From assembly GCA_000002445.1 (NCBI GenBank), contig CH464491.1:2048001-2112000 (forward strand): a stretch of 64,000 nt of DNA, written 5' to 3'. The notes beneath the pieces are model-generated. The model saw nothing but the letters and a program-made list of their open reading frames with translations. It did not search any database and had not been told where the DNA came from. The stretch's first letter is position 1. Every line of letters starts with the position of its first letter. The DNA comes from Trypanosoma brucei (taxonomy: Eukaryota). This document shows positions 2,647 to 56,207 of the stretch, piece after piece. The translations under genes and the position numbers were made by a program.

Positions 2647-3597
2647 GTGGTACATACCATGCCCCAATGTGGCACGGAAAAACATGTATCTGCACCTCCT
2701 TCTTACACCGGTCCATTTGTTGCCGTTGTCGTGGATCTGGACGGGACGATACTTGACGACAACCACCGTGTAAGTGACGTTACAAAGGCAACTCTTTACG
2801 AAGTTGCGTCATGTGGTGTGCACATCATCATTGCCACTGGCCGTCCTCGTGAGGGTGTGGCAGCCATAGAGCAAGAGCTCAATAGTTATTTCCGTTGCAA
2901 CAGCCGTGTGCCTGGGCGTGCCACTTCTTTGGCAGAGGTTAAGGGATTTCATTTGGTGGCGTCAAATGGCGCGCGGATTTACAACACAACGGGGGAACTC
3001 ATCTCCGCAGAGAGTATTGATAATAGTGTCGTTCGTGCTATATATGAGCGCGTTACGGAGTCGAATATCAATGCCAACAGTGAAGACTCTATGCTGGTGT
3101 CTGTCCACCAGACGGGCGCGTGGTGGGTAAATAACGTACTACCTGAAGAATGGCTGCGGCGTAAGTATGGAACCCTGCCGGAGGTGCGGCAAAACCTCTC
3201 GGATTTTCCAACGGATGGTGTTGGAAAAATATGCCTTCGATCCTTTAATGAAGGCACGCTTCGCACGTTCCAAAAGGAGCTAGATACGAAGTACGAGCAC
3301 TACATAACGACCGTCATGACATCTGATCATTGCTTGGATATTATGCCGAAAGGAGTTTCGAAGGCATCGGCCTTGAGGATGGTTGGGGAAATTTTGAACT
3401 TTGAGCCACATCGGGATGCCATTGCATTTGGTGATAGTCTCAACGATAGGGACATGTTAGAGAGTGTGGCTAAAGGGTGTATAATGAAAAATGGGAAGAA
3501 TGAACTGAAAGAGCTGTTGCCTCATGTGGAGGTAGTTGGTTGCAATGAGGAGGATGGAGTGGCGCATAAGTTACGTGAAGTGTTTCTGCTGAGCTAG
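2647..3597 (+). CDS. HAD-superfamily hydrolase, subfamily IIB (Cof-like sugar-phosphate phosphatase)
   Basis: Motif I 'VVDLDGTILDD' (DxD nucleophile), the 'IIATGRP' loop and motif IV 'FGDSLNDRDM' are all present. The 316 aa length is typical of Cof-type phosphatases. Confidence 0.75.
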   Translation: MVHTMPQCGTEKHVSAPPSYTGPFVAVVVDLDGTILDDNHRVSDVTKATLYEVASCGVHIIIATGRPREGVAAIEQELNSYFRCNSRVPGRATSLAEVKGFHLVASNGARIYNTTGELISAESIDNSVVRAIYERVTESNINANSEDSMLVSVHQTGAWWVNNVLPEEWLRRKYGTLPEVRQNLSDFPTDGVGKICLRSFNEGTLRTFQKELDTKYEHYITTVMTSDHCLDIMPKGVSKASALRMVGEILNFEPHRDAIAFGDSLNDRDMLESVAKGCIMKNGKNELKELLPHVEVVGCNEEDGVAHKLREVFLLS

Positions 3598-5439
3598 GCA
3601 GAGGAAAAGGGACGGAAGAAGATTGTTTATGGGTTCACAACTGATATGACATTCTTCCGTGTTTTACTCCTTACTTTTTTAGTTGGACATGTTTCTTTTT
3701 GTTTTCTCTCCCCCCTCTTTTCCCTTCCTTCGATTCAACAACAACACCAACATATATGAAGAGAAGGCTAACATGTGACTTTGGACGGAATTGAAGCTGT
3801 TCTTGCTCTTCACATAGTTTTGCAATCAGCTGTTCTTCTTTTCTTTTCCACTCCAAATTTTTCTTAGTTTAAATCTGTGTTTTCCCCTCTTTTTTTTTTT
3901 TGCCACGCCTTCATTTGTTTCACCATCTTAACCGGCACTGCATACTGCCGTGACACTACTTTATCTTCCTCTCCCGTCATCCTTCCGTTATTCCTCCCTT
4001 TTTGTATACTTGAAGAGGGGGGGGGGGTCGTATGGACTGAAACTGCGCTCTAGGTTTAATTTATGGCAATTGGGGAATGTTATGGTGGAATACGCAATGA
4101 TGAAAGAAACCATAACATCAGAAGGGAAAGCGAGGACGTGAAAGTCGAAGTGGAGACCAAGTTTGTCATGAGTTGAAGCGAACATTTATTTTTGGTTTCA
4201 CATTACTACATAAACCCACGAAGTGTGTACGTGCATAAATAAATGATATATATATATATATCTTTCCAATGTTTGATATCTTTATTTTTCTTTTTGCTCT
4301 CCTTCCTCTATCCGTGTGCGGCGTATTCGTAGGACCACGGGAATATGAGGAGGGGAGAAAGGTATGATGATATGAGAGCTTGGGTATCTGCTTCTTTTGG
4401 TTGATTTTTTTCTTCTAAATTCCCTTCAGTTTATTTTGATTTAACCCCCGCATCCGCGCAGAGCCATCTTCTCCGCATTGTATCAGGGGCCGTGGAAACG
4501 CCCAGTAAGGGATGCATTGTCTGTAACATGTTTCTTTTCTTTGAGTAGGAGAGAAGGGGACGGGATGCAAGTTGAAAATAGGCAAATGACAAATTATTTC
4601 GACGGAAATTGTAGTGAATTTTTATAGTGTTCCTAGGAGGGATTTGGTGCAATAAAAAGAACAAGTGTCGGGTAATATTCGACCCTCATATCTGAGAGTA
4701 TGGTTCGCCTCAACTACAGACCATATGAGGGAGAGGGAGGTCATGCCGCCTTTGGACGTAGTGAAAACAGCACCGAGCAGTTTTTGAAGCATTTTCTTTT
4801 TTTTGTTGTTGTCCTTCTATCCACTGCTCGCGGTGTGAGTTTTACGATTTTGACGTTGCTCACATTTTACGTCTCCTTTCTCCTTCCAACTACCCCACAT
4901 CAAGTAGTTGTGGTAATTTGTTAGGGTGTTAACATATTTTAGTACATTATCATACCCCATATCGGGAACTACCGGTGGTAAATCCTCAGGTGGAACATAA
5001 TTTGGGTCTCAAACATTTGAAACGAGCATGATAAGAGGAAGAGATATATGCTGAACTGGTGTATTCATTAAAAGGGAGATGATGTTCCCTTCTTTAGTGA
5101 GACAACTATTGGTGCTTGGAAACATTCAACCGTGGGTTTGTGCGGCTCCGACTGCGATATGCTCAACATGAGACCGGCGAAGTACGTGCCTACATGTGTA
5201 GAAGAGGAACTAAATACGTGTCTTACCGGCCTTATTATAATAGCCACATTACCTGCACTTCGATTTCATTCGCTTCTTTCTCTTTGCTGTTCTTAGCATG
5301 TTTGCATTCTTCTTTTGCTATATGAGTGCATTCCATCTGCCTCAGGGTATCATCGTCGTGTAGAATATTCGCAACCATTCCGCGATGATACTCTTGCCAT
5401 TCTGTGACGTTGCTATGTCTAAATATACCTTTTACACTT

Positions 5440-18544: not shown

Positions 18545-19513
18545 ATGGGAGAGGAGGTAGTTAGGTTAGATGGACATGGCGTAACTGATGGCACGGTGGC
18601 TGGTTTGTGTGATCACCGTAATATCCGACGCGTGGAATTAACGAACTGCACCCGCATCACTGATATCAGCCCATTGGCCAATATTTTTACGCTCGAAGAG
18701 GTGGTCATACGCAACTGCCAGTCCGTGCGTTACGTTGGAACACTTGGCCAATCGCAGCCGTCTCTGCGCAGAATTGAATTCACGGGGACCCCTCTGACAG
18801 GAGAGCAGCTGCAACTTCTTAGAAGTGCGCAAGCGCAATTAATTCTTAGAGACGGCGACTTTCCAGTACAACTGAAGCAACCAGGACAACTCCTCGTCAA
18901 GGAATCCATCGATGTTGTCAAGGGCATCGTAAGTCAGTTCAAGCCTGAAGAAATTGGGATTGCCTTCAATGGTGGCAAGGATTCTGTGGTTATGATGGAC
19001 ATCCTCTACTGTGTCATGGGGGCAGAATTCATTTCTCAGTGTTGTGTGTTTCATCTCAACACAATCAACGATAAGGAGTTTCACGAAGTGGTGGAGTTCA
19101 GGAAGGCATTCGCTGCTGCCAGAAAACTCTCTATAGTTCAATCTGATCAGATGTTATCCATGAAGGACGGGCTTGAACAAGTCAAGAAAACGATGGGTAT
19201 TCGAGTAGCTTTCATGGGAACGCGCAAAGCGGACGGTTGCCATCAAATGACTGGTGTAGAGAGAACCACGGCGGGCTGGCCTGATCTGCTGCGCGCCTGC
19301 CCGCTGTTTTGTTGGGAGTATGAAGATGTTTGGGGCTACATACGGACCTATGATCTTCCCTTCTGTGAATTGTATGAAAAAGGATATACTTCCCTTGGAG
19401 GCGCGAACAGCACCATTCCAAATTCTCACCTGTCCCGCGAGGATGGAACGTTCCGCCCCGCCTGGGAATTGGCTAATGGGAGGTCTGAGCGATGTGGAAG
19501 GCTAAGCACATGA
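18545..19513 (+). CDS. FAD synthetase (FMN adenylyltransferase, PAPS-reductase-like fold) with about 110 aa N-terminal Cys-containing LRR-like extension
   Basis: PP-loop motif 'IGIAFNGGKDSVVMMDILYCV' (compare FAD1/FLAD1 'SFNGGKDC') and the C-terminal 'GYTSLGGANSTIPNSHL' FAD1-type motif are present. The N-terminal 'VELTNCTRITDISPLANIFTLEEVVIRNCQSV' resembles trypanosomatid cysteine-containing LRRs. No Met lies between the ORF start and the PP-loop. Confidence 0.75.
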   Translation: MGEEVVRLDGHGVTDGTVAGLCDHRNIRRVELTNCTRITDISPLANIFTLEEVVIRNCQSVRYVGTLGQSQPSLRRIEFTGTPLTGEQLQLLRSAQAQLILRDGDFPVQLKQPGQLLVKESIDVVKGIVSQFKPEEIGIAFNGGKDSVVMMDILYCVMGAEFISQCCVFHLNTINDKEFHEVVEFRKAFAAARKLSIVQSDQMLSMKDGLEQVKKTMGIRVAFMGTRKADGCHQMTGVERTTAGWPDLLRACPLFCWEYEDVWGYIRTYDLPFCELYEKGYTSLGGANSTIPNSHLSREDGTFRPAWELANGRSERCGRLST

Positions 19514-20059: not shown

Positions 20060-20470
20060 ATGAGCCGTGCCAACGTGCCGTTCAATCCGATGAGGCGGAC
20101 CCCTCCGCCTCCACCCTGCATTGACACATTCACGCTCGTTCCCAGTGATTACATGTCGATGTTATCAGCAGATGGTCATAAATTCGTACTTCATCGTGAC
20201 TGTGCGTGTGCCTCACCTCTTATTCGTAAGGCACTTACAAATCTCGTGGACCCCGGCGTTCCGGAGATGCGCTTCGACTGGGCCAATGGTGACAATGAGC
20301 CTCCGGTTATTTACTTTACAAAAGCGCCAACTGCATTATTAGAGGTGGTTATCAAGTATCTGTACTACAAGCATAGATATGAAGGAGATACCGATTACCG
20401 ACCGCCATTCGACGTGCCACGCCAAATCGCCCTCGATATCATGAAGCTCGCGCAGGTACTCCAATGTTAA
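20060..20470 (+). CDS. Elongin C-like (SKP1/BTB-fold) protein, copy 1
   Basis: 'LSADGHKFVLHRDCACASPLIRKAL ... VIKYLYYKHRYEGDTDYRPPFDVPRQIALDIMKLAQVLQC' aligns along its length with human Elongin C ('[25 protein letters not shown] ... [40 protein letters not shown]'), including the terminal Cys. Confidence 0.75.
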   Translation: MSRANVPFNPMRRTPPPPPCIDTFTLVPSDYMSMLSADGHKFVLHRDCACASPLIRKALTNLVDPGVPEMRFDWANGDNEPPVIYFTKAPTALLEVVIKYLYYKHRYEGDTDYRPPFDVPRQIALDIMKLAQVLQC

Positions 20471-20693
20471 CCACTCACCCTCTCTTTCGGTGGTTCTGCA
20501 TGTGCATGGACATGTGATATGTTGTTGCCTCTATACCAAAAGAGAGAGAAGGGCGAAATGTGTAGGTGTAAACAGCGATTCTTCAATCTAACCATGGTTT
20601 CACACCTGCGTGTCATAACACAAGCCCCTTTTTATGATTGCCATCCGCCTCTTCTCCTCGCACGGCTTTTTCTTCTGGTTTCAAGGGGTTATC

Positions 20694-21272
20694 ATGAAAA
20701 GGGCAAAGGCACTTGTTGTTGCCGAGCAGGCCACACCGCAAGTGATTCCATGTGAGCCGTCCTACATGGTGTGTTTAGAATCCTCTGATGGGCATCGTTT
20801 CTTAGTGGACCGAAACTGTGCTATGGTGAGTGGCGTGATGCGGCAAGCCATGCGCAACAAACTTTCAGATTTTGATGACAACAACTCCTCCCATGTGGCG
20901 GCAAACGCAACTTCCACCGCAGATGGGACGGTTTGTCCTGCCTCTCTGTCACCCACAACGTTTGAAACGGCTACCTTTTCCTCCTCCATCGCTTCCTCCG
21001 TATGCTCCGAGGATTGCGCGAGTACCATGGGAAACCTCATGTCACCCACGCAACGCGGGGAGGAGGTATGCACGATGACAAAAATTGGATCGTTAGAATA
21101 TGAAGTTATTAAACTGGATGAGATACCCGGGGACCTCCTTGACCTCGCAGTGCAAGAGATGTACTACAAGTACAGGTACGATGGGGAGCCGGAGAAGCGA
21201 CCGCAGGAACCAACGCATACTGTAGATATGAGGTACAAACTCGCTGCGTTGAGCGTCCTCCTAGATATGTAA
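20694..21272 (+). CDS. Elongin C-like paralogue, copy 2 (with about 70 aa Ser/Thr-rich insertion)
   Basis: 'LESSDGHRFLVDRNCAMVSGVMRQAM ... VQEMYYKYRYDGEPEKRPQEP' carries the same Elongin C block, split by a low-complexity insertion. It lies immediately downstream of copy 1 on the same strand. Confidence 0.65.
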   Translation: MKRAKALVVAEQATPQVIPCEPSYMVCLESSDGHRFLVDRNCAMVSGVMRQAMRNKLSDFDDNNSSHVAANATSTADGTVCPASLSPTTFETATFSSSIASSVCSEDCASTMGNLMSPTQRGEEVCTMTKIGSLEYEVIKLDEIPGDLLDLAVQEMYYKYRYDGEPEKRPQEPTHTVDMRYKLAALSVLLDM

Positions 21273-21620
21273 TACCTTGCGGATCAGTTCTATTCACAAG
21301 CAGAAGTGGTGTTTGATCATGGTCACCCAGAGGGGGAAAGGGGGTCGGCGCGTGTGTGCATGTGCATGTATTGGGAGTGTAAAATTATTGTGATATGTGG
21401 TGGAACCCCGCGTCACACAAGAAACTGTCAGAGAAGCTGCATGTAGTGTCGTTCTCCCATGCTTTTTGATCTTCACTGCTTTTCGCACCGTGTTTTCTGC
21501 TGTTCTCACCCATTGATATTTCTTTTCAGTGGTGTTTTGCCCACCAGCACCTGGTGGTGACACCGCTTGGATTTTGTTTTCCGATTTTATTTTATTTTTC
21601 GTTGGCAGTGGGACGCTACG

Positions 21621-23420
21621 ATGAGTAGGGATCGTGGTGGTATAGAGCTTGTTTCTCATGGCAGAGGGGTACGTGACTGCTTCGAAGAGAATGAAAGCGC
21701 TTCTGATGCGCCTGATGGTGGCATGGAGTGGGTTTCCAGTGGGGACGCATCCGAGGAATGTGTTAACGACGTTGACGACATTTATAGTAACCGCGATGAT
21801 AGTGGCGCTGATGAGGAAGGAAACGAGTTTGGGCGAGAATATGAGGACGACAGGGGTGAGTTCCGCAGTGGTTTTGCGACAGCATTCAGCAACATTTTAG
21901 CCCGTGACCTGGAAATTCAACAGAGACACTGCCAACAGGTGGAAGGGGCTGGTGTTGACGTTAATCCAAGAGTTGCAACCGCCGACGGCCAGGTGGCAAC
22001 GGCGGGAGCGAAGGAGAAAATTTGCTGCATTTGCAAGGACAAATCTGTTTATACATGCCCTGGCTGCGGTGCCCGGACATGCAGCATGACGTGTGTGCGT
22101 GTTCATAAGGCGCAGTTCAATTGCAGTGGGGAGCGCAATGTTGCCGAGAAAGTGCCCCTAAGTGAGTTCACAGATAAGCAACTTGAACGCGACTTCCACT
22201 TCTTGGAGGACACACGTCGCGTGATAAGTAATTGTGAGCGCACGTTTCCAAAAATGTGGCGCTACACTTTTAGGGCGCTTCCTCCCCCACTTTATGCCCT
22301 ACGAAAGGCTGCAAAGCAGCGAGGAGTTGTATGCCAAATAACCTCCGAGGGAATGTCTAAGCGTGACGCAAACACATCCCGGTTTGATCGCAGGACAGAA
22401 ACGATCATCTGGCGTTGCCAGTTTAACTTCCACACCCCCAATTTCACCGTATCCACAGACTGGGGAAATGAAAGGCACAAACTTGGCGATATTTTGACGT
22501 ACTGCTGGGCTAAAAATCCACCGGTCCACTGTTTTCACATTAATCGAAGGTACAACCGTGCCTCCAAGTGGATTGGGATTGAGGGAGAAAGGGAAGGGAA
22601 AGAAGTGGAACGGGAAGAAGAAGGGGAAAAGGACAAGGAGAATGTTGAAAATGGAAGGGAAGAGAACGAAAGTGTGGAATTCAGGTGCTCCGGTGCCAGT
22701 GACACTTTAGCCGACATCAGTACAAGAAAAGAGGACTCAAATGATGAGGATGGTGCCGTCGGACCTCTGTTCGTCGAAGTGGGTGACAAACAACAGCAAC
22801 AACAAGTATGGAAGCCGTCAGTACTGGACATTAGTCCCCAGTCGCCCGAGGAAACTAAAAGTAAAGAAACTGTTTCTGCGTTCCTCTCTCTGGGTCCCGT
22901 CATTATTTTAGCGCAGGCAGAGCGACTCGGACTGGAGAAGAAGTATTTTCGGCTTTCCCCATCTCAAACCCTCAATGAGACATTGCGTACCCTCTTCTTC
23001 ATCAATGAGTTTCCTGTGTTCGAAGTCATTCATGCATCAGATCTCGAGTCCTATGCTCTGGTCACGGATGCTGACAAGGAGCGGATACGCGAGAGTTTCC
23101 GTGCAGCTCCACGTCCAACGAAGCCGGAGCGCCCACCGCGTCCAACGAAATCAACCTTGACACCGGAGGAGCGTGACCGTTATGCTCAGGTGCCGTGCCG
23201 CCTCTTTCTCGCGGGGTGTTGTAAACTCGGTGAAGAGGAGTGCCCGTACAGACACTGTGAATATCAGGACGTCCCGGTTTGCCGTAGTTTCATGAAGTTC
23301 GCTTCCTGTGAAAAAGGCAACCGGTGCGTGTTTCGGCACGATGCCACCGCCGTAGCGACGGCAAGGAAACGAATGCGAGAGGAGCGCCAGGCTGTACAAC
23401 TAGGCAGGCGGCGTTTTTAG
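21621..23420 (+). CDS. zf-HIT (BCD1/ZNHIT-like) protein with C-terminal tandem CCCH zinc fingers
   Basis: HIT finger 'CCICKDKSVYTCPGCGARTCSMTCVRVHKAQFNC'. An acidic Glu/Lys-rich central region follows. C-terminal 'CRLFLAGCCKLGEEECPYRH' and 'CRSFMKFASCEKGNRCVFRH' give C-x7-8-C-x5-6-C-x3-H. Start set at 'MSRDRGG' because the upstream ORF part translates a polypyrimidine tract. Confidence 0.7.
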   Translation: MSRDRGGIELVSHGRGVRDCFEENESASDAPDGGMEWVSSGDASEECVNDVDDIYSNRDDSGADEEGNEFGREYEDDRGEFRSGFATAFSNILARDLEIQQRHCQQVEGAGVDVNPRVATADGQVATAGAKEKICCICKDKSVYTCPGCGARTCSMTCVRVHKAQFNCSGERNVAEKVPLSEFTDKQLERDFHFLEDTRRVISNCERTFPKMWRYTFRALPPPLYALRKAAKQRGVVCQITSEGMSKRDANTSRFDRRTETIIWRCQFNFHTPNFTVSTDWGNERHKLGDILTYCWAKNPPVHCFHINRRYNRASKWIGIEGEREGKEVEREEEGEKDKENVENGREENESVEFRCSGASDTLADISTRKEDSNDEDGAVGPLFVEVGDKQQQQQVWKPSVLDISPQSPEETKSKETVSAFLSLGPVIILAQAERLGLEKKYFRLSPSQTLNETLRTLFFINEFPVFEVIHASDLESYALVTDADKERIRESFRAAPRPTKPERPPRPTKSTLTPEERDRYAQVPCRLFLAGCCKLGEEECPYRHCEYQDVPVCRSFMKFASCEKGNRCVFRHDATAVATARKRMREERQAVQLGRRRF

Positions 23421-36792: not shown

Positions 36793-37680
36793 ATGAATGC
36801 GGACGAAAAAACGCGGTATGACCGGCAAATGCGGCTCTGGGGGAAGAGCACGCAGGAAAGACTACGGAGGACGGAAGTCAACATCAAGGGCATAACTTCC
36901 GCCAATGCAGAGGTGGCCAAAAATTTGGTGCTCGCCGGCGTCGGTTCCGTCGTCTTGGACGATACGGCCCCTGTTGAGGCTGCCGATCTTAAGCACAGTT
37001 TTATTCTTCAGGGTTGTAAGTTGGGGGAACGGCGGGGTGAGGCTTCGGCGGGGAAGCTCCAGTCGCTTAACCCGTACGTGGCGGTGTCGTCGAGTCGGGA
37101 AATTAGAAATAGGGATGGGGCGCCGCAGAGCAACTCGTCGCTTCGGGTTGTTTTGGCACGCGCAAAGTGTGAGGCTGACATGCTCGAGTGTGCGGGGGAT
37201 CCACTGAGCGGGTCAGCGGATGTCATGCTGCTCACGGTCGACCTCGGGCACCTGACAGCGGGCTTCTTCCTTTACAGGAAACAAAAGATCCCTTTCGTGG
37301 CGCAATTAAGAGCATTACTCGATGAGGAAGTCGGCACGAGGCCCGTTGTGTTCCAGCGGGTGCTGTTGTTGTTAAAAATGGCTGAATGCCCACAGGAGCT
37401 TAATTACTTTGAGCGTCTTCTCTTTGCTAAGGATTTTGTGCGTCAACGTAGTCTGCTGCAACTGACGCGTGAAGATATCGAGTTTGCCGCGGCCGCCACT
37501 GGAGAGTTGATGCACAGCACCGCGATCGAAACCACAGTGGCGGGAGGCGTGTTTGCTCAGCTCATTATTCACACAATAGGAATGGGAAGCGAAGAAATGG
37601 GAGAAGGAGAATATGCCTGGGCAATTAGTGACACCAGCGACGGTGTCGAGGTTCAAGTGGGGCACCTGCGCAACCCGTAG
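36793..37680 (+). CDS. ubiquitin-like activating enzyme E1 regulatory subunit (AOS1/SAE1- or ULA1-like, ThiF fold)
   Basis: 'MNADEKTRYDRQMRLWGKSTQERLRRTEVNIKGITSANAEVAKNLVLAGVGSVVLDD' matches the 'YDRQIRLWG ... GLG.EIAKNLVLAGV' opening of AOS1/APPBP1. The start is the internal Met, since upstream codons translate a T-rich tract. Confidence 0.7.
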   Translation: MNADEKTRYDRQMRLWGKSTQERLRRTEVNIKGITSANAEVAKNLVLAGVGSVVLDDTAPVEAADLKHSFILQGCKLGERRGEASAGKLQSLNPYVAVSSSREIRNRDGAPQSNSSLRVVLARAKCEADMLECAGDPLSGSADVMLLTVDLGHLTAGFFLYRKQKIPFVAQLRALLDEEVGTRPVVFQRVLLLLKMAECPQELNYFERLLFAKDFVRQRSLLQLTREDIEFAAAATGELMHSTAIETTVAGGVFAQLIIHTIGMGSEEMGEGEYAWAISDTSDGVEVQVGHLRNP

Positions 37681-38562
37681 AGGGATCGATGCGCTCATAA
37701 GGCACGCAGCGCATGTGTTTTGGTCCGTATATTTCGTACCTTTCGCAGGCTGGATGGGATTGTGTGCAGCTGCCAACCAAAGTATCTCGTTTTCTACTCT
37801 TATGAGGGGGGGGGGGGGTTGGTTGGTGCCAATAAACTTATTCGGCGGTGTGCCTCTATTCAGGGGATAAAATGCGAAACTGCCGCAAACAAAACTCATC
37901 GCAACCTTTTCTCTTGCTTTTGTCTGTAACACTAGGTGCAGCCCCAAGGGTCAATCTATTGTTTAGCGAAGGCTCGTTGCCAAGTCTTCATGTGACGGTG
38001 CCCCCAACAGCACCTGGAAGTTGTACGGGGAGTGCTTGCCGCTGGAAGTAGCTCTCTCCTATCATTTTTTCTTTGTCCGCCAGGTGGGGTTGTTGAGATG
38101 TTGACGTCCCACAAACACATGTAACGATTTGCGTGGGTTAGTTGGTGCACGCGCACTCCAAATAATTCATGCCCTCGAACAGCCAACGCGATTGGGGCTT
38201 TGGAAATGTGATCTACGCTTGCGCCAACTTTTAGAAGATGTAGAAGAGAAGCCGCATTGCCCAACACCGCCCCAACACTTTAAACACACCAAGCGGCAGC
38301 AGAGTTAGAACTGAGAAACCATCCGGTTGCCCCGAGAAAGGGTACAAACGTGCACGCCGTCAGCACATACTACCATTGGCATCGAAACCATTGCGACAAA
38401 CAAATATAAACCGGCAGGAACCGATAGGAAATTTACGGAAGTAAAACTGTAAGCGCGCGTTCTTCCAAAGCACTGGCAACGCATGAGAAAGTGGGTGTGG
38501 ATATGCACAATTACCGATGGGTCGACGTCCTCCACCATCATCGGGCCCAAACCACATAACAC
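37681..38562. terminator. convergent strand-switch region between the plus and minus PTUs (putative Pol II termination zone)
   Basis: The last plus-strand CDS stops at 37680 and the first minus-strand CDS stops at 38563. There is no ORF and no tRNA-like T-loop in between. The region contains a G13 tract at 37806-37818. Confidence 0.5.
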
Positions 38563-40473
38563 TCACGCCGTCCAGACATCCTTCAAATACCGTTCATCAG
38601 TTGCGAGTTTCTCAAGCAATGCCGTCGCCTCATCCTCCTTCATTGCACCATATTTCTGCGCGATGTCCAGTAGCTGCCTCTCGACATCCCTCGCCATATT
38701 CTTTGCATCCCCGCATACGTAAACATTTCCTCCTCTGCTGATTATTTCCCATACTTCCTTCCCGCGTGCCGCTAAGCGGTGCTGCACATAAACTTTATCC
38801 GCTTGTTCTCTGCTGTAAGCAACATCCCGCACGGAGAGTGCCCCATTCGATAGACACTTCTCCATAAAGTCGGCATATATATGATCCTCCTCACGCCTCC
38901 TGCAACCAAAAAACAAAAGTGCATCACCAACTTTGTTACCCTTTTCCAGCCACGCGCTACGGCGGTGGAGAAATCCAATAAAAGGCGCTACACCCGTGCC
39001 CGGGCCAATCATGATGATTGGTCGATCCTTAGCTCGAAGCGGAAGGTGGAAGTTAGATTTTCGCACAAACACGGGAATGTTTTGACCCACGGCTGCCTGC
39101 TGAAGCAAATTCGTGCAGAGGCCACCCTCGACCACAGCAACAGTAATGGCCACACTCGTCGGGTGGGTCAGAGAATCAGACGAAATGGAAAAATACCGTG
39201 GGGCAATCCGCGGCATCATCTCCAAGAAGAAACTCAGCGGGGGAGACATCGACTTGAATCGCTGCAAAAAGCCAAGGACAGTCCTTAACTCCAAAACAAG
39301 CTTGCCATACGCCTCCACCGACTCGGGTTCAGTACTCAGCAGTTTTAACAAGGTGTCCTTTTCAACGGGATCAGTGCAATGGTGGGCGAAAGCACGCAAA
39401 GTAGACTTCTTGGGGGGCCCGGCAAGATCGATGTACCATGTGAGTGCAGTGCGAATTGACACGCGACAAGGAAAAACGTTCTTGCCAGTTGCTCTGTTCT
39501 GCAGCGAGATGACCTGACTTGATTCTTGCTCGCTCACGCCCAACACCCGCAGATAAGTGTTCACCATTTCGCTGGGGTTACTAGGAAGAACACCGAGGTG
39601 GTCACCAGCCTGGTAGGAGATAACAGTTTCTGATGTATCAAACTCAATTAACCTTGTACTTCTTCCGGTAGCATTGCTCAGCAGCTCCTTGTTCACCTTC
39701 ACTGGTGCCCAAGAAGGCAATCGTTGTGTTGGTTCCAACACTGACGCGAGCTTGGGGAACGGCAACGGGGCCTCTTCCGGAGGTCCCCATAATTTCATTC
39801 GGCATTCGGGTGCCACGGGTTCGGTTGAGTTCGATTTCAGTACTAGAGAAAGTGCGCGTCCCAAGACTGGCCAGAGGTTGTGACACCAGTTATCAAATTC
39901 TTCTTCGATGCTATTTCCACAGTCGCCATAACCGAGGGGATAGAAACGTTGAGCACCTAACTCAGACATGCGGCGGTCCACCGTGATGCCTTCACGGCAA
40001 AAGAACTTGTATTGCCGGTCCCCGAGGGCAAACACTGTGTATTTCACCCCACTTAATTCCTCTCCCACTGCACGGGAGTCGTCTACCAACCACTCATGGA
40101 ACCCGACCATGGTGTCCGTGGGTTCACCCTCACCATACGTGGCGCAGATAATAATGACATATTTTTCCCCTGCCAAGTCGGACGGACGATAATTTTCCAC
40201 GTCAGCAAGTTTCATAGGGACACCCAGTCTCAAGCCCTCTCGCGTAACAGTCTTAGCAAACATTTCAGCAGTACCTGTTTGCGAGCCGAAGAGAACGCGA
40301 ACGTCGACTCGAGAAGACGGTTGTGAAGGATATTGAGCAACCCCTACAACCTGTGGTGCGGCGGTTTTCCCCCTACCCCCACCACCGCGTATGAAAACCC
40401 CGGCAACGAACCATGCAAGGACCGCGATAATGGCGGTGGATATCACGAGGAAAATCATGAGATACAACGCCAA
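38563..40473 (-). CDS. CPR: NADPH-cytochrome P450 reductase
   Basis: N-terminal TM anchor 'MALYLMIFLVISTAIIAVLAWFVAGVFI'. The flavodoxin motif 'VLFGSQTGTAE', FAD-binding 'RYFSISS' and NADPH site 'IMIGPGTGVAPFIGF' are all present. Confidence 0.9.
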   Translation of the reverse strand: MALYLMIFLVISTAIIAVLAWFVAGVFIRGGGGRGKTAAPQVVGVAQYPSQPSSRVDVRVLFGSQTGTAEMFAKTVTREGLRLGVPMKLADVENYRPSDLAGEKYVIIICATYGEGEPTDTMVGFHEWLVDDSRAVGEELSGVKYTVFALGDRQYKFFCREGITVDRRMSELGAQRFYPLGYGDCGNSIEEEFDNWCHNLWPVLGRALSLVLKSNSTEPVAPECRMKLWGPPEEAPLPFPKLASVLEPTQRLPSWAPVKVNKELLSNATGRSTRLIEFDTSETVISYQAGDHLGVLPSNPSEMVNTYLRVLGVSEQESSQVISLQNRATGKNVFPCRVSIRTALTWYIDLAGPPKKSTLRAFAHHCTDPVEKDTLLKLLSTEPESVEAYGKLVLELRTVLGFLQRFKSMSPPLSFFLEMMPRIAPRYFSISSDSLTHPTSVAITVAVVEGGLCTNLLQQAAVGQNIPVFVRKSNFHLPLRAKDRPIIMIGPGTGVAPFIGFLHRRSAWLEKGNKVGDALLFFGCRRREEDHIYADFMEKCLSNGALSVRDVAYSREQADKVYVQHRLAARGKEVWEIISRGGNVYVCGDAKNMARDVERQLLDIAQKYGAMKEDEATALLEKLATDERYLKDVWTA

Positions 40474-45599: not shown

Positions 45600-47561
45600 T
45601 TACAGATCGTCCATGGGTTGTGGCTTGTCGCCTCCGCCGGCGGATTGGTAAGTCTTCTGGATGATGGGGTTGGTCACGCTCTGCAGAGTTTCCAGGGCAG
45701 TTTTGTACTCCTCCTTTTCGGCGTTCGGATTTTCGTCAAGGAAGCGGATCGCCTCCGCAACAGCGGTCTCCACTGCAGCCTTGTCATTGGGGTCAAGTTT
45801 CCCACCAAGCTTATCCTTATCGTTCACTTGGTTGCGTAGGGAATACGCAACGCTCTCCAGCGAGTTACGCGCATCCACACGCTCGCGCACCTTGCGGTCC
45901 TCGTCCTCGAACTCTGCCGCTTCGCGCACCATACGCTCAATCTCCTCCTCGCTCAGGCGACCCTTGTCGTTGGTGATGGTGATCTCTTCCTTCTTTCCAG
46001 ACGACTTGTCCATAGCGCTCACCTGCAGGATGCTGTTCTCGTCGACGTCAAATGTCACTTCGATTTGTGGCACACCACGCGCGGCAGGAGGAATTCCCGA
46101 CAACTCGAATTTGCCCAGGAGGCGGTTATCCTTTGTCAGCTGGCGCTCACCCTCATACACTTGGATAAGCACACCCGGCTGGTTGTCCGCATGGGTAGAA
46201 AAGACCTGACTCTTCTTGGTGGGGATCTGTGTGTTACGCTCGATGAGTTTTGTCATGACACCACCTACAGTTTCAATACCAAGCGACAGTGGGATCACAT
46301 CTACAAGCACAACGCGCCCGCCAACCTCGCTTTCACCGGTTAGCACCGCAGCTTGCACAGCGGCACCATATGCTACGGCTTCATCGGGGTTAATACCACG
46401 GTTCAGTTCCTTCCCACCGAAGAAGTCACTGATCAGTTGTTGTACCTTCGGCACACGTGTGGATCCACCAACGAGCACAATCTCGTGGATGTCACTCTTC
46501 TTCAGCTTCGCATCCTCCAGCACACGTTGCACGGGCACGAGTGTCCCCTTGAAGAGGTCCATGTTCAGCTCCTCAAACTTCGCACGTGTGATTTTCTCGC
46601 TGAAATCGAAGCCCTCCGTAAGGCTGTCCACCTCCACACGCGCCTCGGGATGAGACGACAGCTGTCGCTTCGCAGCCTCACATGCCTTGCGAAGACGTGC
46701 CAGTGCCTTTTGGTCCTTACTGATGTCAACATTCTTTTTCTTCTTCAGCATGTCCACAAAGTGTCGCATCATGTTGTTATCAAAGTCCTCACCACCAAGG
46801 TGCGTATCACCGTTTGTCGCCACAACTTCGAAGAAGCCCTCATCGATTGTCAGCAGTGACACATCAAAGGTACCACCACCAAGATCGAACACCAGGATAT
46901 TCTTCTCACCGGCTTTGTTTAGCCCATATGCGATGGCGGCTGCGGTGGGCTCATTGATGATGCGCACTACGTTCAAACCGGCGATGGTCCCAGCATCCTT
47001 TGTCGACTGCCGTTGTGCGTCATTGAAGTACGCAGGTACCGTTACAACAGCGTTTTTCACTTTCTCGCCAAGGTACGTTTCTGCAATTTCCTTCATCTTC
47101 TGCAGCACCATGGCACTGATCTCTTCTGGTGTGAACTGTTTCTTTTTCCCACCCACCATCACTTGTACCTTCGGCTTCCCGTCGCGGTCCGCAATGACCT
47201 CATACGACAGCAGTTTCTTGTCAGCCTGCACTGCCGCATCCGTGTACTTGCGGCCAATCAGCCTCTTGATGGTGTAGATTGTATTATGCGGATTCTGTGG
47301 AAGCTGATTCTTCGCACCGTCACCGATCAGCCGCTCTGTGTCGGTAAAGGCGACGACGGAAGGTGTGATGCGGTTACCCATCTCGTTCGGGATGATATGC
47401 ACATCACCCTTCTGCCACACACCCACAACGGAGTATGTTGTGCCGAGGTCGATGCCCACGCATGGTGCTTCCACCTTGCCGCCACTTTCGGGTGCTGCTG
47501 AGACGGCTGCAACCGTCACAGTCAGGAACACCGCTGCAGTGGTCAGCCACATCCTCGACAT
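45600..47561 (-). CDS. BiP: BiP/GRP78 (ER-lumenal Hsp70), copy 1
   Basis: Signal peptide '[22 protein letters not shown]'. Hsp70 signatures 'IDLGTTYS' and 'DLGGGTFD' are present. The C-terminal ER-retention signal 'MDDL' matches the published T. brucei BiP retention motif. Confidence 0.95.
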
Positions 47562-53873: not shown

Positions 53874-56207
53874 ACACCTGCCAGTACACTTACAGATCGT
53901 CCATGGGTTGTGGCTTGTCGCCTCCGCCGGCGGATTGGTAAGTCTTCTGGATGATGGGGTTGGTCACGCTCTGCAGAGTTTCCAGGGCAGTTTTGTACTC
54001 CTCCTTTTCGGCGTTCGGATTTTCGTCAAGGAAGCGGATCGCCTCCGCAACAGCGGTCTCCACTGCAGCCTTGTCATTGGGGTCAAGTTTCCCACCAAGC
54101 TTATCCTTATCGTTCACTTGGTTGCGTAGGGAATACGCAACGCTCTCCAGCGAGTTACGCGCATCCACACGCTCGCGCACCTTGCGGTCCTCGTCCTCGA
54201 ACTCTGCCGCTTCGCGCACCATACGCTCAATCTCCTCCTCGCTCAGGCGACCCTTGTCGTTGGTGATGGTGATCTCTTCCTTCTTTCCAGACGACTTGTC
54301 CATAGCGCTCACCTGCAGGATGCTGTTCTCGTCGACGTCAAATGTCACTTCGATTTGTGGCACACCACGCGCGGCAGGAGGAATTCCCGACAACTCGAAT
54401 TTGCCCAGGAGGCGGTTATCCTTTGTCAGCTGGCGCTCACCCTCATACACTTGGATAAGCACACCCGGCTGGTTGTCCGCATGGGTAGAAAAGACCTGAC
54501 TCTTCTTGGTGGGGATCTGTGTGTTACGCTCGATGAGTTTTGTCATGACACCACCTACAGTTTCAATACCAAGCGACAGTGGGATCACATCTACAAGCAC
54601 AACGCGCCCGCCAACCTCGCTTTCACCGGTTAGCACCGCAGCTTGCACAGCGGCACCATATGCTACGGCTTCATCGGGGTTAATACCACGGTTCAGTTCC
54701 TTCCCACCGAAGAAGTCACTGATCAGTTGTTGTACCTTCGGCACACGTGTGGATCCACCAACGAGCACAATCTCGTGGATGTCACTCTTCTTCAGCTTCG
54801 CATCCTCCAGCACACGTTGCACGGGCACGAGTGTCCCCTTGAAGAGGTCCATGTTCAGCTCCTCAAACTTCGCACGTGTGATTTTCTCGCTGAAATCGAA
54901 GCCCTCCGTAAGGCTGTCCACCTCCACACGCGCCTCGGGATGAGACGACAGCTGTCGCTTCGCAGCCTCACATGCCTTGCGAAGACGTGCCAGTGCCTTT
55001 TGGTCCTTACTGATGTCAACATTCTTTTTCTTCTTCAGCATGTCCACAAAGTGTCGCATCATGTTGTTATCAAAGTCCTCACCACCAAGGTGCGTATCAC
55101 CGTTTGTCGCCACAACTTCGAAGAAGCCCTCATCGATTGTCAGCAGTGACACATCAAAGGTACCACCACCAAGATCGAACACCAGGATATTCTTCTCACC
55201 GGCTTTGTTTAGCCCATATGCGATGGCGGCTGCGGTGGGCTCATTGATGATGCGCACTACGTTCAAACCGGCGATGGTCCCAGCATCCTTTGTCGACTGC
55301 CGTTGTGCGTCATTGAAGTACGCAGGTACCGTTACAACAGCGTTTTTCACTTTCTCGCCAAGGTACGTTTCTGCAATTTCCTTCATCTTCTGCAGCACCA
55401 TGGCACTGATCTCTTCTGGTGTGAACTGTTTCTTTTTCCCACCCACCATCACTTGTACCTTCGGCTTCCCGTCGCGGTCCGCAATGACCTCATACGACAG
55501 CAGTTTCTTGTCAGCCTGCACTGCCGCATCCGTGTACTTGCGGCCAATCAGCCTCTTGATGGTGTAGATTGTATTATGCGGATTCTGTGGAAGCTGATTC
55601 TTCGCACCGTCACCGATCAGCCGCTCTGTGTCGGTAAAGGCGACGACGGAAGGTGTGATGCGGTTACCCATCTCGTTCGGGATGATATGCACATCACCCT
55701 TCTGCCACACACCCACAACGGAGTATGTTGTGCCGAGGTCGATGCCCACGCATGGTGCTTCCACCTTGCCGCCACTTTCGGGTGCTGCTGAGACGGCTGC
55801 AACCGTCACAGTCAGGAACACCGCTGCAGTGGTCAGCCACATCCTCGACATCGGGAGGGGGATTATCTTGAACTTAATATTAGTGTTAGGTAAGTAGGTT
55901 TGTGTGTTTTAGTATGCTTAGCTTATCTTTCCAAAACAACGCGAAACGTGAAAATATGTGGAGAGGAGGTGTGGTGGGGCGATGAAAAGGGACAAATAGG
56001 GAAAAGGAAATGGTAAAACGCAGATGGCACACGGAAAGGGCAAGGCGGAAGAAGGGGTCGCCTCCAGTGCTGCCATGGGGCTCCTGCAAGTAGAGGTTAT
56101 GTGCTCTCTAGATAAAAATGCGCGTGAAGTCTGCCGCTACGGGGCAATACGCACCACAGAATTTACATAATTAAAACGAGGGATGTAAGTCCTTCCTGTA
56201 TACCCAA
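53874..56207. repeat. 2334 bp duplicated segment B (BiP copy 2 unit)
   Basis: See segment A. Confidence 0.9.
53890..55851 (-). CDS. BiP: BiP/GRP78 (ER-lumenal Hsp70), copy 2, identical to copy 1
   Basis: The 653 aa translation is identical to copy 1, including the signal peptide and the C-terminal MDDL. Confidence 0.95.

What the first reader, a model, noticed from the sequence alone, without database searches (positions are those of the whole stretch)
20060..21272. Tandem pair of divergent Elongin C-like genes
Two adjacent same-strand ORFs both carry the Elongin C (SKP1/BTB-fold) core and the 'Y-Y-K-[HY]-R-Y' helix that contacts BC-box proteins. They are only about 40% identical to each other. 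The second carries a Ser/Thr-rich insertion of about 70 aa between the core and the C-terminal helix. Most eukaryotes have a single Elongin C, which acts as the adaptor for Cul2/Cul5 ligases and for Elongin A. A divergent tandem paralogue suggests sub-functionalisation, for example a dedicated adaptor for a kinetoplastid-specific BC-box protein set.
Basis: partly seen in the sequence, partly recalled or inferred. Interest (0 to 1): 0.55.

Follow-up and report, generated by a model that had tools for sequence, protein, structure and literature searches.

The report
Ancient tandem Elongin C gene pair
Two neighbouring Trypanosoma brucei genes both encode Elongin C-type adaptor proteins: one is the ordinary orthologue, and the other is an old, divergent copy kept next to it since before trypanosomes split from free-living bodonids, with its partner-binding groove changed and its function untested.

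Summary
The window is T. brucei TREU927 chromosome 11.

- **ORF1:** 20060-20470, 136 aa, Tb927.11.7430. It is a clear Elongin C orthologue. Its family profile matches human Elongin C at E=1.3e-15 over the full length. The AlphaFold model matches Elongin C chains with TM about 0.83-0.90. The residues of the human receptor (BC/VHL-box) groove are kept.
- **ORF2:** the real start is most likely 20694, not the annotated 20634. It ends at 21272 and is 192 aa, probably Tb927.11.7440. It is a paralogue of ORF1 (hhalign 98.9%, E=1.4e-17). Its model also matches Elongin C best (TM about 0.8).
- **ORF2 loop and groove:** ORF2 carries a 64-residue, 34% Ser/Thr, disordered and fast-evolving loop between helix 2 and strand 3. 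In Trypanosoma its groove is remodelled (Y76 to E/A/S/M, F93 to E, A100 to R/K).
- **Age:** the pair is old. The same ORF1-type then ORF2-type tandem follows the PAPS_reduct gene in T. vivax, T. cruzi, T. theileri, Angomonas, Novymonas, Bodo saltans and an unidentified organism.
- **Cullin contacts:** neither copy keeps the Met105/Phe109 Cul2 pocket. Neither was among the published interactors of five T. brucei cullins.

Sub-functionalisation is plausible but untested. This is a new member of a known kind, of moderate interest.

The parts
20060..20470 (+). ORF1, 136 aa, Tb927.11.7430 (UniProt Q384S2): the kinetoplastid Elongin C orthologue
   Evidence: ORF. phmmer against PDB Elongin C gives 5e-9 over the full length, and the family profile gives 1.3e-15. 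AlphaFold mean pLDDT is 79.6. Foldseek top hits are all Elongin C, TMt 0.74-0.90. The gene ID, the 136-aa length and the location 2092278-2092688(+) come from a supplementary table of PMC12816148.
20081..20116 (+). N-terminal motif of ORF1, FNPMRRTPPPPP (residues 8-19). It lies outside the Elongin C fold and is conserved from Bodo to Trypanosoma.
   Evidence: Invariant columns F8 N9 P10 M11 P15-P17 P19 in alignment A4, which includes Bodo and Angomonas (sequences). The region has low pLDDT in the model. Its function is unknown.
20363..20380 (+). YYKHRY motif at the C-terminal end of helix 3 of ORF1
   Evidence: Helix 91-107 in the model. It aligns to human T78-Y83, and human Tyr79 contacts a VHL-box residue (PMC12580893).
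20634..20693 (+). Annotated N-terminal extension of ORF2. It is probably 5' UTR: a polypyrimidine tract followed by AG at 20684-20685.
   Evidence: No orthologue shares it. T. equiperdum is annotated at 192 aa. Sequence read. The splice-acceptor reading is an inference; no RNA data were available.
20694..21272 (+). ORF2, 192 aa from MKRAK. Probably Tb927.11.7440, inferred from its position next to .7430. UniProt Q384S1. A divergent Elongin C paralogue.
   Evidence: BLASTP against ORF1 4e-9. hhalign of the ORF1 family against the ORF2 family gives 98.9%, E=1.4e-17. AlphaFold core pLDDT 80-92. The 50 Foldseek PDB hits listed are all Elongin C. Orthologues in 9 Trypanosoma species and in Phytomonas, Angomonas, Novymonas, Lotmaria, Bodo and Trypanoplasma.
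20877..21068 (+). Ser/Thr-rich disordered loop insertion of ORF2 (residues 62-125), between helix 2 and strand 3
   Evidence: pLDDT mostly below 50 across residues 63-124. 22 of 64 residues are Ser/Thr. Identity to orthologues is 8-30% here against 57-69% in the core, and the length is variable. Loop length across kinetoplastids ranges from 35 to 158 residues.
21162..21179 (+). YYKYRY motif at the end of helix 3 of ORF2
   Evidence: Helix 146-162 in the model.
18545..19513 (+). Upstream synteny anchor: a gene with a PAPS_reduct domain (FAD-synthetase-like)
   Evidence: Pfam PF01507, 9.5e-24. The same gene lies directly upstream of the pair in T. vivax, T. cruzi, T. theileri, Bodo, Angomonas, Novymonas and L009.
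21618..23420 (+). Downstream synteny anchor: BCD1/zf-HIT protein. The ATG at 21618 is assumed; the ORF opens at a TTG at 21567.
   Evidence: Pfam PF25790 7.8e-22 and PF04438 2.9e-6. It follows the pair in T. vivax, T. cruzi, T. theileri and Angomonas.

Best explanation
**Shown.**

- ORF1 (Tb927.11.7430) is the kinetoplastid orthologue of Elongin C.
- ORF2 is a paralogue of it with the same fold, ending after helix 4 as Elongin C does.
- The two arose by a tandem duplication that predates the divergence of Bodo saltans from trypanosomatids, and they have stayed adjacent since.
- ORF2-type proteins form their own clade, evolve faster, and carry a length-variable disordered loop at the position where the fold tolerates insertions.

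**Inferred.**

- ORF1 keeps the hydrophobic groove that in human Elongin C holds the BC/VHL-box helix. It therefore most likely still docks a helix-bearing partner in the canonical way.
- In Trypanosoma, ORF2 has replaced key groove residues with charged or small ones and has its own invariant C-terminal helix (LAALSVLLDM). It therefore most likely docks a different partner set. The copies are sub-functionalised adaptors rather than redundant ones.
- Neither copy keeps the Met105/Phe109 pocket that receives the Cul2 N-terminal tail. Any scaffold they bridge to is not contacted in the Cul2 manner. It could be one of the two cullins without a known adaptor (TbCul-B, TbCul-C) or a non-cullin complex.
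For: - **ORF1 is Elongin C:**
- **ORF2 is homologous to ORF1 and has the Elongin C fold:**
- **Conserved tandem PAPS_reduct, ORF1-type, ORF2-type:** T. vivax, T. cruzi and T. theileri, Bodo saltans, Angomonas, Novymonas, and the unidentified organism of L009.
- **Phylogeny:** in a neighbour-joining tree on 101 core columns, the ORF2-type clade of 39 sequences, including Bodo and Trypanoplasma, has 84% bootstrap. It excludes ORF1 and canonical Elongin C. Scores against the two family HMMs agree with this split.
- **Purifying selection on the ORF2 core:** 37 invariant columns across 8 Trypanosoma species, with core identity 57-69% against 8-30% in the loop.
- **Groove residues:** ORF1 keeps V/I73, Y76, F93, V/I95, A100, L/I/V103 and C112. 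Trypanosoma ORF2 has A/G73, E/A/S/M76, E93, R/K100, A/V/T104 and M112. The groove is defined from structures.
- **Expression:** ORF1 protein is expressed (7 peptides, 56.6% coverage). TrypTag places it in the cytoplasm and axoneme.
Against: - No interaction data exist for either protein.
- Neither is in the significant interactor lists of five T. brucei cullins. This fits a non-cullin role or simply a partner that has not been sampled.
- The residue mapping of ORF2 around positions 93-100 crosses a one-residue indel, so F93/I95/A100 equivalences are less certain than Y76.
- Outside Trypanosoma, ORF2-type proteins keep F/Y at position 76, and some keep F or L at position 93. The groove change is therefore partly genus-specific, not a property of the whole clade.
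- Sequence-only evidence that ORF2 is Elongin C rather than SKP1-like is weak. The Pfam Skp1_POZ score is 17.8 bits, below the cut-off of 21.9. The family profile hits Arabidopsis SKP1-like 20 at 2.4e-3 and Elongin C at 4e-3.
- Gene order is highly conserved in kinetoplastids in general, so retained adjacency does not itself show functional coupling.
- The tree is neighbour-joining on about 100 columns.
Confidence: 0.72

Rival explanations
1. ORF2 works outside cullin ligases. Like the trypanosome Skp1 paralogue SkpZ, which binds the deubiquitinase TbUsp7 and TbTpr86 rather than a cullin, it would serve as a small structural subunit of a lineage-specific complex. ORF1 may do the same in the flagellum.
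For: There is a precedent in the same organism and fold superfamily: SkpZ forms the TUSK complex (PMC11732084). Neither ORF is among the significant interactors of TbCul-A, D, E, F or G. The Cul2-pocket residues Met105/Phe109 are not kept in either copy. ORF1 localises to the axoneme and cytoplasm.
Against: TbCul-B could not be tagged and TbCul-C gave no adaptors, so a cullin partner is not excluded. ORF1 keeps the receptor groove of a ligase adaptor. Absence from significance-filtered lists is weak negative evidence.
Confidence: 0.3
2. ORF2 is a member of the SKP1 family proper, one more Skp1 paralogue like Skp1.2-1.4, and not an Elongin C duplicate.
For: UniProt names it 'SKP1 component POZ domain-containing protein'. 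The only Pfam hit is Skp1_POZ. The best sequence hit of the ORF2 family profile in the PDB is Arabidopsis SKP1-like 20, marginally ahead of Elongin C.
Against: The protein ends after helix 4 and has no SKP1 C-terminal F-box-binding domain. The 50 Foldseek PDB hits listed are all Elongin C. Its closest relative is the adjacent ORF1, whose family profile hits Elongin C at 1e-15 and Skp1 only at 1e-4. Its T. grayi and T. rangeli orthologues are not in the published Skp1 paralogue table, and Skp1.3 has different orthologues.
Confidence: 0.07
3. ORF2 is a decaying or strain-specific duplicate without function.
For: It evolves faster than ORF1: T. brucei to T. congolense identity is 53% against 75%. 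A third of it is a low-complexity loop. It was not found in the stored parts of the proteome tables searched, although those files were cut when stored.
Against: The frame is intact in every species examined, from Bodo to T. brucei. There are 37 invariant columns among Trypanosoma, including the whole C-terminal SVLLDM. The core is confidently folded. Phytomonas keeps ORF2-type even though no ORF1-type lies next to it.
Confidence: 0.02

Closest known systems
Human Elongin C (ELOC/TCEB1), the adaptor of CRL2/CRL5 ligases and of Elongin A
   Same: Both ORFs have the same fold and the same end point after helix 4. ORF1 aligns over the full length and keeps groove residues V73/Y76/F93/I95/A100/L103/C112.
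   Different: Both ORFs have N-terminal extensions and longer loops between helix 2 and strand 3. Met105/Phe109, the Cul2 hotspot, become K/R plus V/T/M/A in ORF1 and A plus L/I/M in ORF2. Trypanosoma ORF2 has acidic or small residues at positions 76 and 93 and a basic residue at 100. An Elongin B partner and Cul2/Cul5 are not established in kinetoplastids.
Yeast Elc1
   Same: It is an Elongin C homologue in an organism without Cul2/Cul5. This shows that the family works with other scaffolds (Ela1/Cul3 is discussed in PMC2785787).
   Different: Yeast has a single copy without a loop insertion. It was used only as a sequence recalled from memory in the tree.
T. brucei Skp1 paralogues Skp1.2, Skp1.3, Skp1.4 and SkpZ (PMC12816148, PMC11732084)
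   Same: They are lineage-specific small adaptors of the SKP1/BTB-POZ superfamily in the same organism. Some are bound to kinetoplastid-specific cullins, and one (SkpZ) is repurposed to a deubiquitinase complex.
   Different: They are different genes: Tb927.9.8370, Tb927.11.13330, Tb927.10.14310 and Tb927.10.11610. The pair here is absent from those papers' ortholog table and interactor lists. Those studies queried with SKP1, RBX1/2, ELOB and APC11, not with ELOC. The pair here is closer to Elongin C than to SKP1.
SKP1
   Same: It shares the N-terminal POZ-like fold. Both ORFs give sub-threshold Pfam Skp1_POZ hits. SKP1 also tolerates a disordered loop in the same region of the fold (my own knowledge, not tested here).
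   Different: Neither ORF has the C-terminal Skp1 domain that binds F-boxes.

Membership tests
Elongin C | Significant full-length sequence similarity to characterised Elongin C | tested here: met
   For ORF1: phmmer 5e-9, and the family profile gives 1.3e-15 over positions 21-136. SKP1 chains score only 1e-4 or worse.
Elongin C | Significant full-length sequence similarity to characterised Elongin C (ORF2) | tested here: inconclusive
   ORF2 alone gives 1.3e-3, and only the N-terminal block is significant. The family profile gives 4e-3 and is outscored by a SKP1-like chain at 2.4e-3. Homology to Elongin C is carried indirectly, through ORF1 (hhalign 98.9%).
Elongin C | Pfam Skp1_POZ (PF03931) at or above the gathering score | tested here: not met
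   ORF1 scores 15.2 bits and ORF2 17.8 bits, against a cut-off of 21.9. The T. cruzi ORF1 orthologue does carry a precomputed PF03931 hit.
Elongin C | Fold: two strands, helices 1-2, a third strand (a hairpin in these models), then helices 3 and 4, ending after helix 4 | tested here: met
   AlphaFold models. The 50 Foldseek PDB hits listed for each model are all Elongin C chains: TMt 0.71-0.87 for ORF2 and 0.74-0.90 for ORF1.
Elongin C | Hydrophobic groove for the BC/VHL-box helix: Val73, Tyr76, Phe77, Phe93, Ile95, Ala100, Leu103, Leu104, Cys112 (PMC11053023, PMC12580893) | tested here: met
   For the ORF1 family, from Bodo to T. brucei: V/I/T/L73, Y76, L/F/M77, F93 (L in Angomonas), V/I95, A100, L/I/V103, M/I/L104, C112 (L in T. 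vivax).
Elongin C | The same groove in ORF2 | tested here: not met
   Trypanosoma ORF2 has A/G73, E/A/S/M76, M77, E93, variable 95, R/K100, L/F103, A/V/T104 and M112. Other kinetoplastid ORF2-type proteins keep F/Y76 but vary at 93 and 100. The alignment near 93-100 crosses an indel.
Elongin C | Met105/Phe109 pocket that receives the Cul2 N-terminal Leu3 (PMC5462531) | tested here: not met
   ORF1 family has K/R105 with V/T/M/A109. ORF2 family has A105 with L/I/M109. The hotspot is defined.
Elongin C | Physical association with Elongin B, a BC-box protein and a cullin | not testable with these tools
   No multimer prediction and no search of the T. brucei proteome were available. Neither protein is in the published significant interactor lists of five cullins.
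SKP1 | C-terminal Skp1 domain (helices 5-8) that binds the F-box | tested here: not met
   There is no Pfam hit beyond Skp1_POZ. Both proteins end 2-3 residues after the last modelled helix.

The most novel reading that the evidence does not exclude
Kinetoplastids, and perhaps a wider euglenozoan group, carry a second, clade-wide Elongin C lineage. Its remodelled groove and invariant C-terminal helix would nucleate a lineage-specific complex that does not use BC-box receptors. That complex could be built on one of the cullins with no known adaptor (TbCul-B or TbCul-C) or could be a non-cullin assembly. The canonical copy would work at least partly in the axoneme. The two might even act together, which would explain adjacency kept across the whole group.
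Probability: 0.25. Interest if true: 0.6.

Novelty: new member of a known kind. Interest (0 to 1): 0.4.

Why it matters
The trypanosome cullin-ligase inventory was published recently. It lists Skp1.1-1.4 and SkpZ but not this pair, and two cullins there still lack an adaptor.

An Elongin C orthologue plus a conserved divergent paralogue are obvious candidates for those gaps, or for new non-cullin complexes. The orthologue has a reported axonemal signal.

It also shows that Elongin C is present, and was duplicated early, in a lineage that lacks Cul2/Cul5. This bears on the view that elongin-based ligases are a late animal and fungal invention.

Tried and rejected
1. **Identity with Skp1.3.** I suspected that ORF2 was the published TbSkp1.3 (Tb927.11.13330). 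This was rejected: its T. grayi and T. rangeli orthologues are different genes from those of ORF2.
2. **Guessing gene IDs by counting from BiP and RRP44.** This gave wrong IDs; Tb927.11.7350 turned out to be H2B.V. The ID of ORF1 was fixed from a supplementary FASTA header. The ID of ORF2 (.7440) remains inferred from position.
3. **Literature searches.** Searches for the gene IDs, UniProt and RefSeq accessions and old IDs found nothing in main texts. The stored TrypTag and TUSK supplements have no entry for either gene.
4. **Word-indexed protein searches.** These found only Trypanosoma homologues. The exhaustive profile search was needed to reach other kinetoplastids.
5. **Bootstrap with Biopython.** It timed out, so I re-implemented it.
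6. **tRNA scan of the window.** It found none.
7. **Contig of P0030.** It could not be read.
8. **Not attempted.** There was also no way to search the T. brucei proteome for Elongin B, Elongin A or BC-box proteins.
Full report
**Where we are.** The two proteins are identical to T. brucei brucei TREU927 entries on a 5.26-Mb contig. A supplementary FASTA header in PMC12816148 gives Tb927.11.7430 as a 136-aa protein at Tb927_11_v5.1:2092278-2092688(+). That is the length and span of ORF1 at 20060-20470. ORF2 is the next gene, so it is presumably Tb927.11.7440. TriTrypDB calls ORF1 'hypothetical protein, conserved'. UniProt auto-names the two 'Elongin-C' (Q384S2) and 'SKP1 component POZ domain-containing protein' (Q384S1).

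**The observation.** Both ORFs are present on the + strand. ORF1 starts at ATG 20060, directly after a pyrimidine run and an AG.

ORF2 is annotated from 20634. Every orthologue begins at the position of MKRAK (20694), and T. equiperdum is annotated at 192 aa. The extra 60 bases are a polypyrimidine tract ending in AG. I therefore take 20694 as the start; this is an inference, since no RNA data were available.

The YYK[HY]RY motif is in both ORFs, at 20363-20380 and 21162-21179. The two proteins are 26-27% identical overall, and 34% and 38% identical in the two alignable blocks, with BLASTP E=4e-9 and 6e-8.

**What each protein is.**

*ORF1.* It matches human Elongin C over its whole fold (E=5e-9). 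A profile of ten kinetoplastid ORF1-type sequences gives 1.3e-15 against Elongin C and only 1e-4 against Skp1. Its AlphaFold model has mean pLDDT 79.6. All of the listed Foldseek PDB hits are Elongin C, with target TM 0.74-0.90.

*ORF2.* It is weak by sequence alone:
- 1.3e-3 for the single sequence;
- Pfam Skp1_POZ at 17.8 bits against a cut-off of 21.9;
- a family profile that gives 2.4e-3 to an Arabidopsis SKP1-like protein and 4e-3 to Elongin C.

The case for ORF2 rests on three other results. Profile-profile comparison with the ORF1 family gives 98.9% probability and E=1.4e-17 over 108 columns. The AlphaFold core is confident, with pLDDT 80-92 and the order strand, strand, helix, helix, strand hairpin, helix, helix. 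The 50 Foldseek PDB hits listed are all Elongin C, with target TM about 0.71-0.87. ORF2 also ends right after the last helix, as Elongin C does, and lacks the SKP1 C-terminal domain.

**The insertion.** Residues 62-125 of ORF2 are predicted to be disordered. They are 34% Ser/Thr and only 8-30% identical among Trypanosoma orthologues, against 57-69% for the core.

The insertion sits between helix 2 and strand 3, at the human 47-60 loop, so it lies inside the fold. Its length varies from 35 to 158 residues across kinetoplastid ORF2-type proteins.

ORF1-type proteins of T. theileri, Angomonas and Novymonas have also expanded the same loop, to 62, 50 and 118 residues (sequences). The loop is a general hotspot for insertions and is not a defining feature of ORF2.

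**Age of the pair.** Orthologues of both genes occur in the Trypanosoma species returned by the searches. The order PAPS_reduct gene, ORF1-type, ORF2-type, BCD1 gene is the same in T. vivax, T. cruzi and T. theileri, and in this window.

An exhaustive profile search plus name look-ups found ORF2-type proteins in six more organisms:
- Phytomonas;
- Angomonas;
- Novymonas;
- Lotmaria;
- Bodo saltans;
- Trypanoplasma borreli.

Reading the loci showed how far the tandem extends:
- **Bodo saltans:** PAPS_reduct, then an ORF1-type gene (…QPFNPMWKPPPPPPP…KVATMLQC), then the ORF2-type gene.
- **Angomonas:** the same order, followed by BCD1.
- **Novymonas:** an unannotated ORF1-type ORF lies between PAPS_reduct and the ORF2-type gene.
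- **Unidentified organism (Logan contig L009):** PAPS_reduct, an ORF1-like gene, and an unannotated 'MSKK…' ORF2-type ORF.
- **Phytomonas Hart1:** it keeps the ORF2-type gene, but no ORF1-type gene lies next to it.

In a neighbour-joining tree on 101 core columns with 500 bootstraps, all ORF2-type sequences form one clade at 84%. That clade includes Bodo and Trypanoplasma and excludes ORF1 and canonical Elongin C. The trypanosomatid subset has 74% support, and the ORF1 sequences of Trypanosoma have 100%. Scoring against the two family HMMs gives the same split, and canonical eukaryotic Elongin C sequences score higher with the ORF1 model.

The duplication is therefore a single old event, at least as old as the common ancestor of Bodo and trypanosomatids. 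The tree is distance-based and short, so deeper placement is open.

**How it probably works.** Published structures define the human Elongin C groove for the BC/VHL-box helix as Val73, Tyr76, Phe77, Phe93, Ile95 and Leu103 (PMC11053023). Ala100, Leu104 and Cys112 also contribute (PMC12580893).

- The ORF1 family keeps these residues almost unchanged from Bodo to T. brucei.
- Trypanosoma ORF2 has A/G73, E/A/S/M76, E93, R/K100, A/V/T104 and M112. T. brucei itself carries two acidic residues in place of the two aromatic ones.
- ORF2-type proteins of other kinetoplastids keep F/Y76 but vary at positions 93 and 100.
- The ORF2 mapping near 93-100 crosses a one-residue indel and is less certain.

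The Cul2 hotspot Met105/Phe109 (PMC5462531) is K/R plus V/T/M/A in ORF1 and A plus L/I/M in ORF2. Neither copy looks built for a Cul2-type N-terminal tail. That fits the reports that Cul2/Cul5 are animal-specific.

My reading is as follows. ORF1 is a canonical-type adaptor that docks a helical box. ORF2 is a sub-functionalised adaptor with a different partner surface. The scaffold for either is unknown.

**What is known experimentally.** ORF1 protein is detected in whole-cell proteomes (7 peptides, 56.6% coverage). TrypTag annotates it as cytoplasm plus axoneme with both N- and C-terminal tags.

The T. brucei cullin study lists significant interactors for TbCul-A, D, E, F and G, and neither gene is there. 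TbCul-B could not be tagged, and TbCul-C gave no adaptors.

That study and the TUSK paper describe Skp1.1-1.4 and SkpZ. The pair here is not in their ortholog table, and their searches did not use ELOC as a query. SkpZ shows that this fold can be repurposed to a non-cullin complex in trypanosomes. This is the main rival for function.

I found no paper that mentions either gene.

**Verdict.** The pair is genuine, ancient and under constraint, and the residue pattern fits divergence of partner specificity. A BC-box adaptor role for ORF2 is not supported by its groove, and all function remains inferred.

This is a new, conserved member pair of a known adaptor family in a lineage already known for Skp1-type expansions. 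It is useful for completing the trypanosome ligase inventory and is moderately interesting.

Noticed in passing
window 20081-20116 (ORF1 residues 8-19); L004 5304-5837; L005 5346-5828: ORF1-type proteins share an N-terminal FNPM[RKW][RK]xPPPPP motif outside the Elongin C fold. It is invariant from Bodo saltans to T. brucei, and related unnamed sequences carry KKxxPPPPSG instead. A proline-rich docking site is possible, but nothing is known about it.
   Followed up: partly
window 20634-20693: The annotated start of the T. brucei TREU927 and T. b. gambiense ORF2 protein (212 aa) is probably 20 codons too early. The T. cruzi CL Brener model (P0007, 200 aa) likewise carries about 59 extra N-terminal residues.
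   Followed up: yes
L006 3661-4362 (Novymonas esmeraldas) and L009 2788-3252 (Logan SRR15674825): Elongin C-type genes were left uncalled in these records. The first is an ORF1-type gene with a loop insert of about 100 residues. The second is an ORF2-type gene ('MSKK…').
   Followed up: yes
L007 (Phytomonas sp. Hart1) 3369-5001: Phytomonas keeps the ORF2-type gene in a different neighbourhood (SPX/Na-sulphate symporter upstream, Dor1 downstream). No ORF1-type ORF of 90 aa or more lies next to it. I could not check whether ORF1 is elsewhere in the genome or lost.
   Followed up: partly
L008 2586-5537 (groundwater metagenome contig) and protein P0025: BCD1 (zf-HIT plus CCCH) lies next to an Elongin C-type gene in other arrangements too. 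In L008, BCD1 is directly upstream of an ORF1-like gene. P0025 is a 1526-aa EukProt model that fuses an ORF2-type protein to BCD1 and further genes, and is almost certainly a run-through gene model.
   Followed up: no
window 45600-47561 and 53890-55851, minus strand: There are two 653-aa HSP70-family ORFs about 8.3 kb apart, with the same pattern of overlapping antisense ORFs. This is a tandem duplicate, consistent with the BiP/GRP78 pair as I recall it (the identification is from my memory).
   Followed up: partly
window about 37680-38563: Coding strand switches from + to - here, which marks a convergent strand-switch region. The last + gene has a ThiF domain and the first - gene is an NADPH-P450-reductase-like gene. 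ARAGORN finds no tRNA genes anywhere in the window.
   Followed up: partly
[quoted passage not shown]: The paper states that EloB has a Skp1-like domain and uses human ELOB (Q15370) as query and outgroup. To my knowledge it is Elongin C that has the Skp1-like fold, and Elongin B is ubiquitin-like. This may be why the pair described here is missing from that inventory.
   Followed up: no
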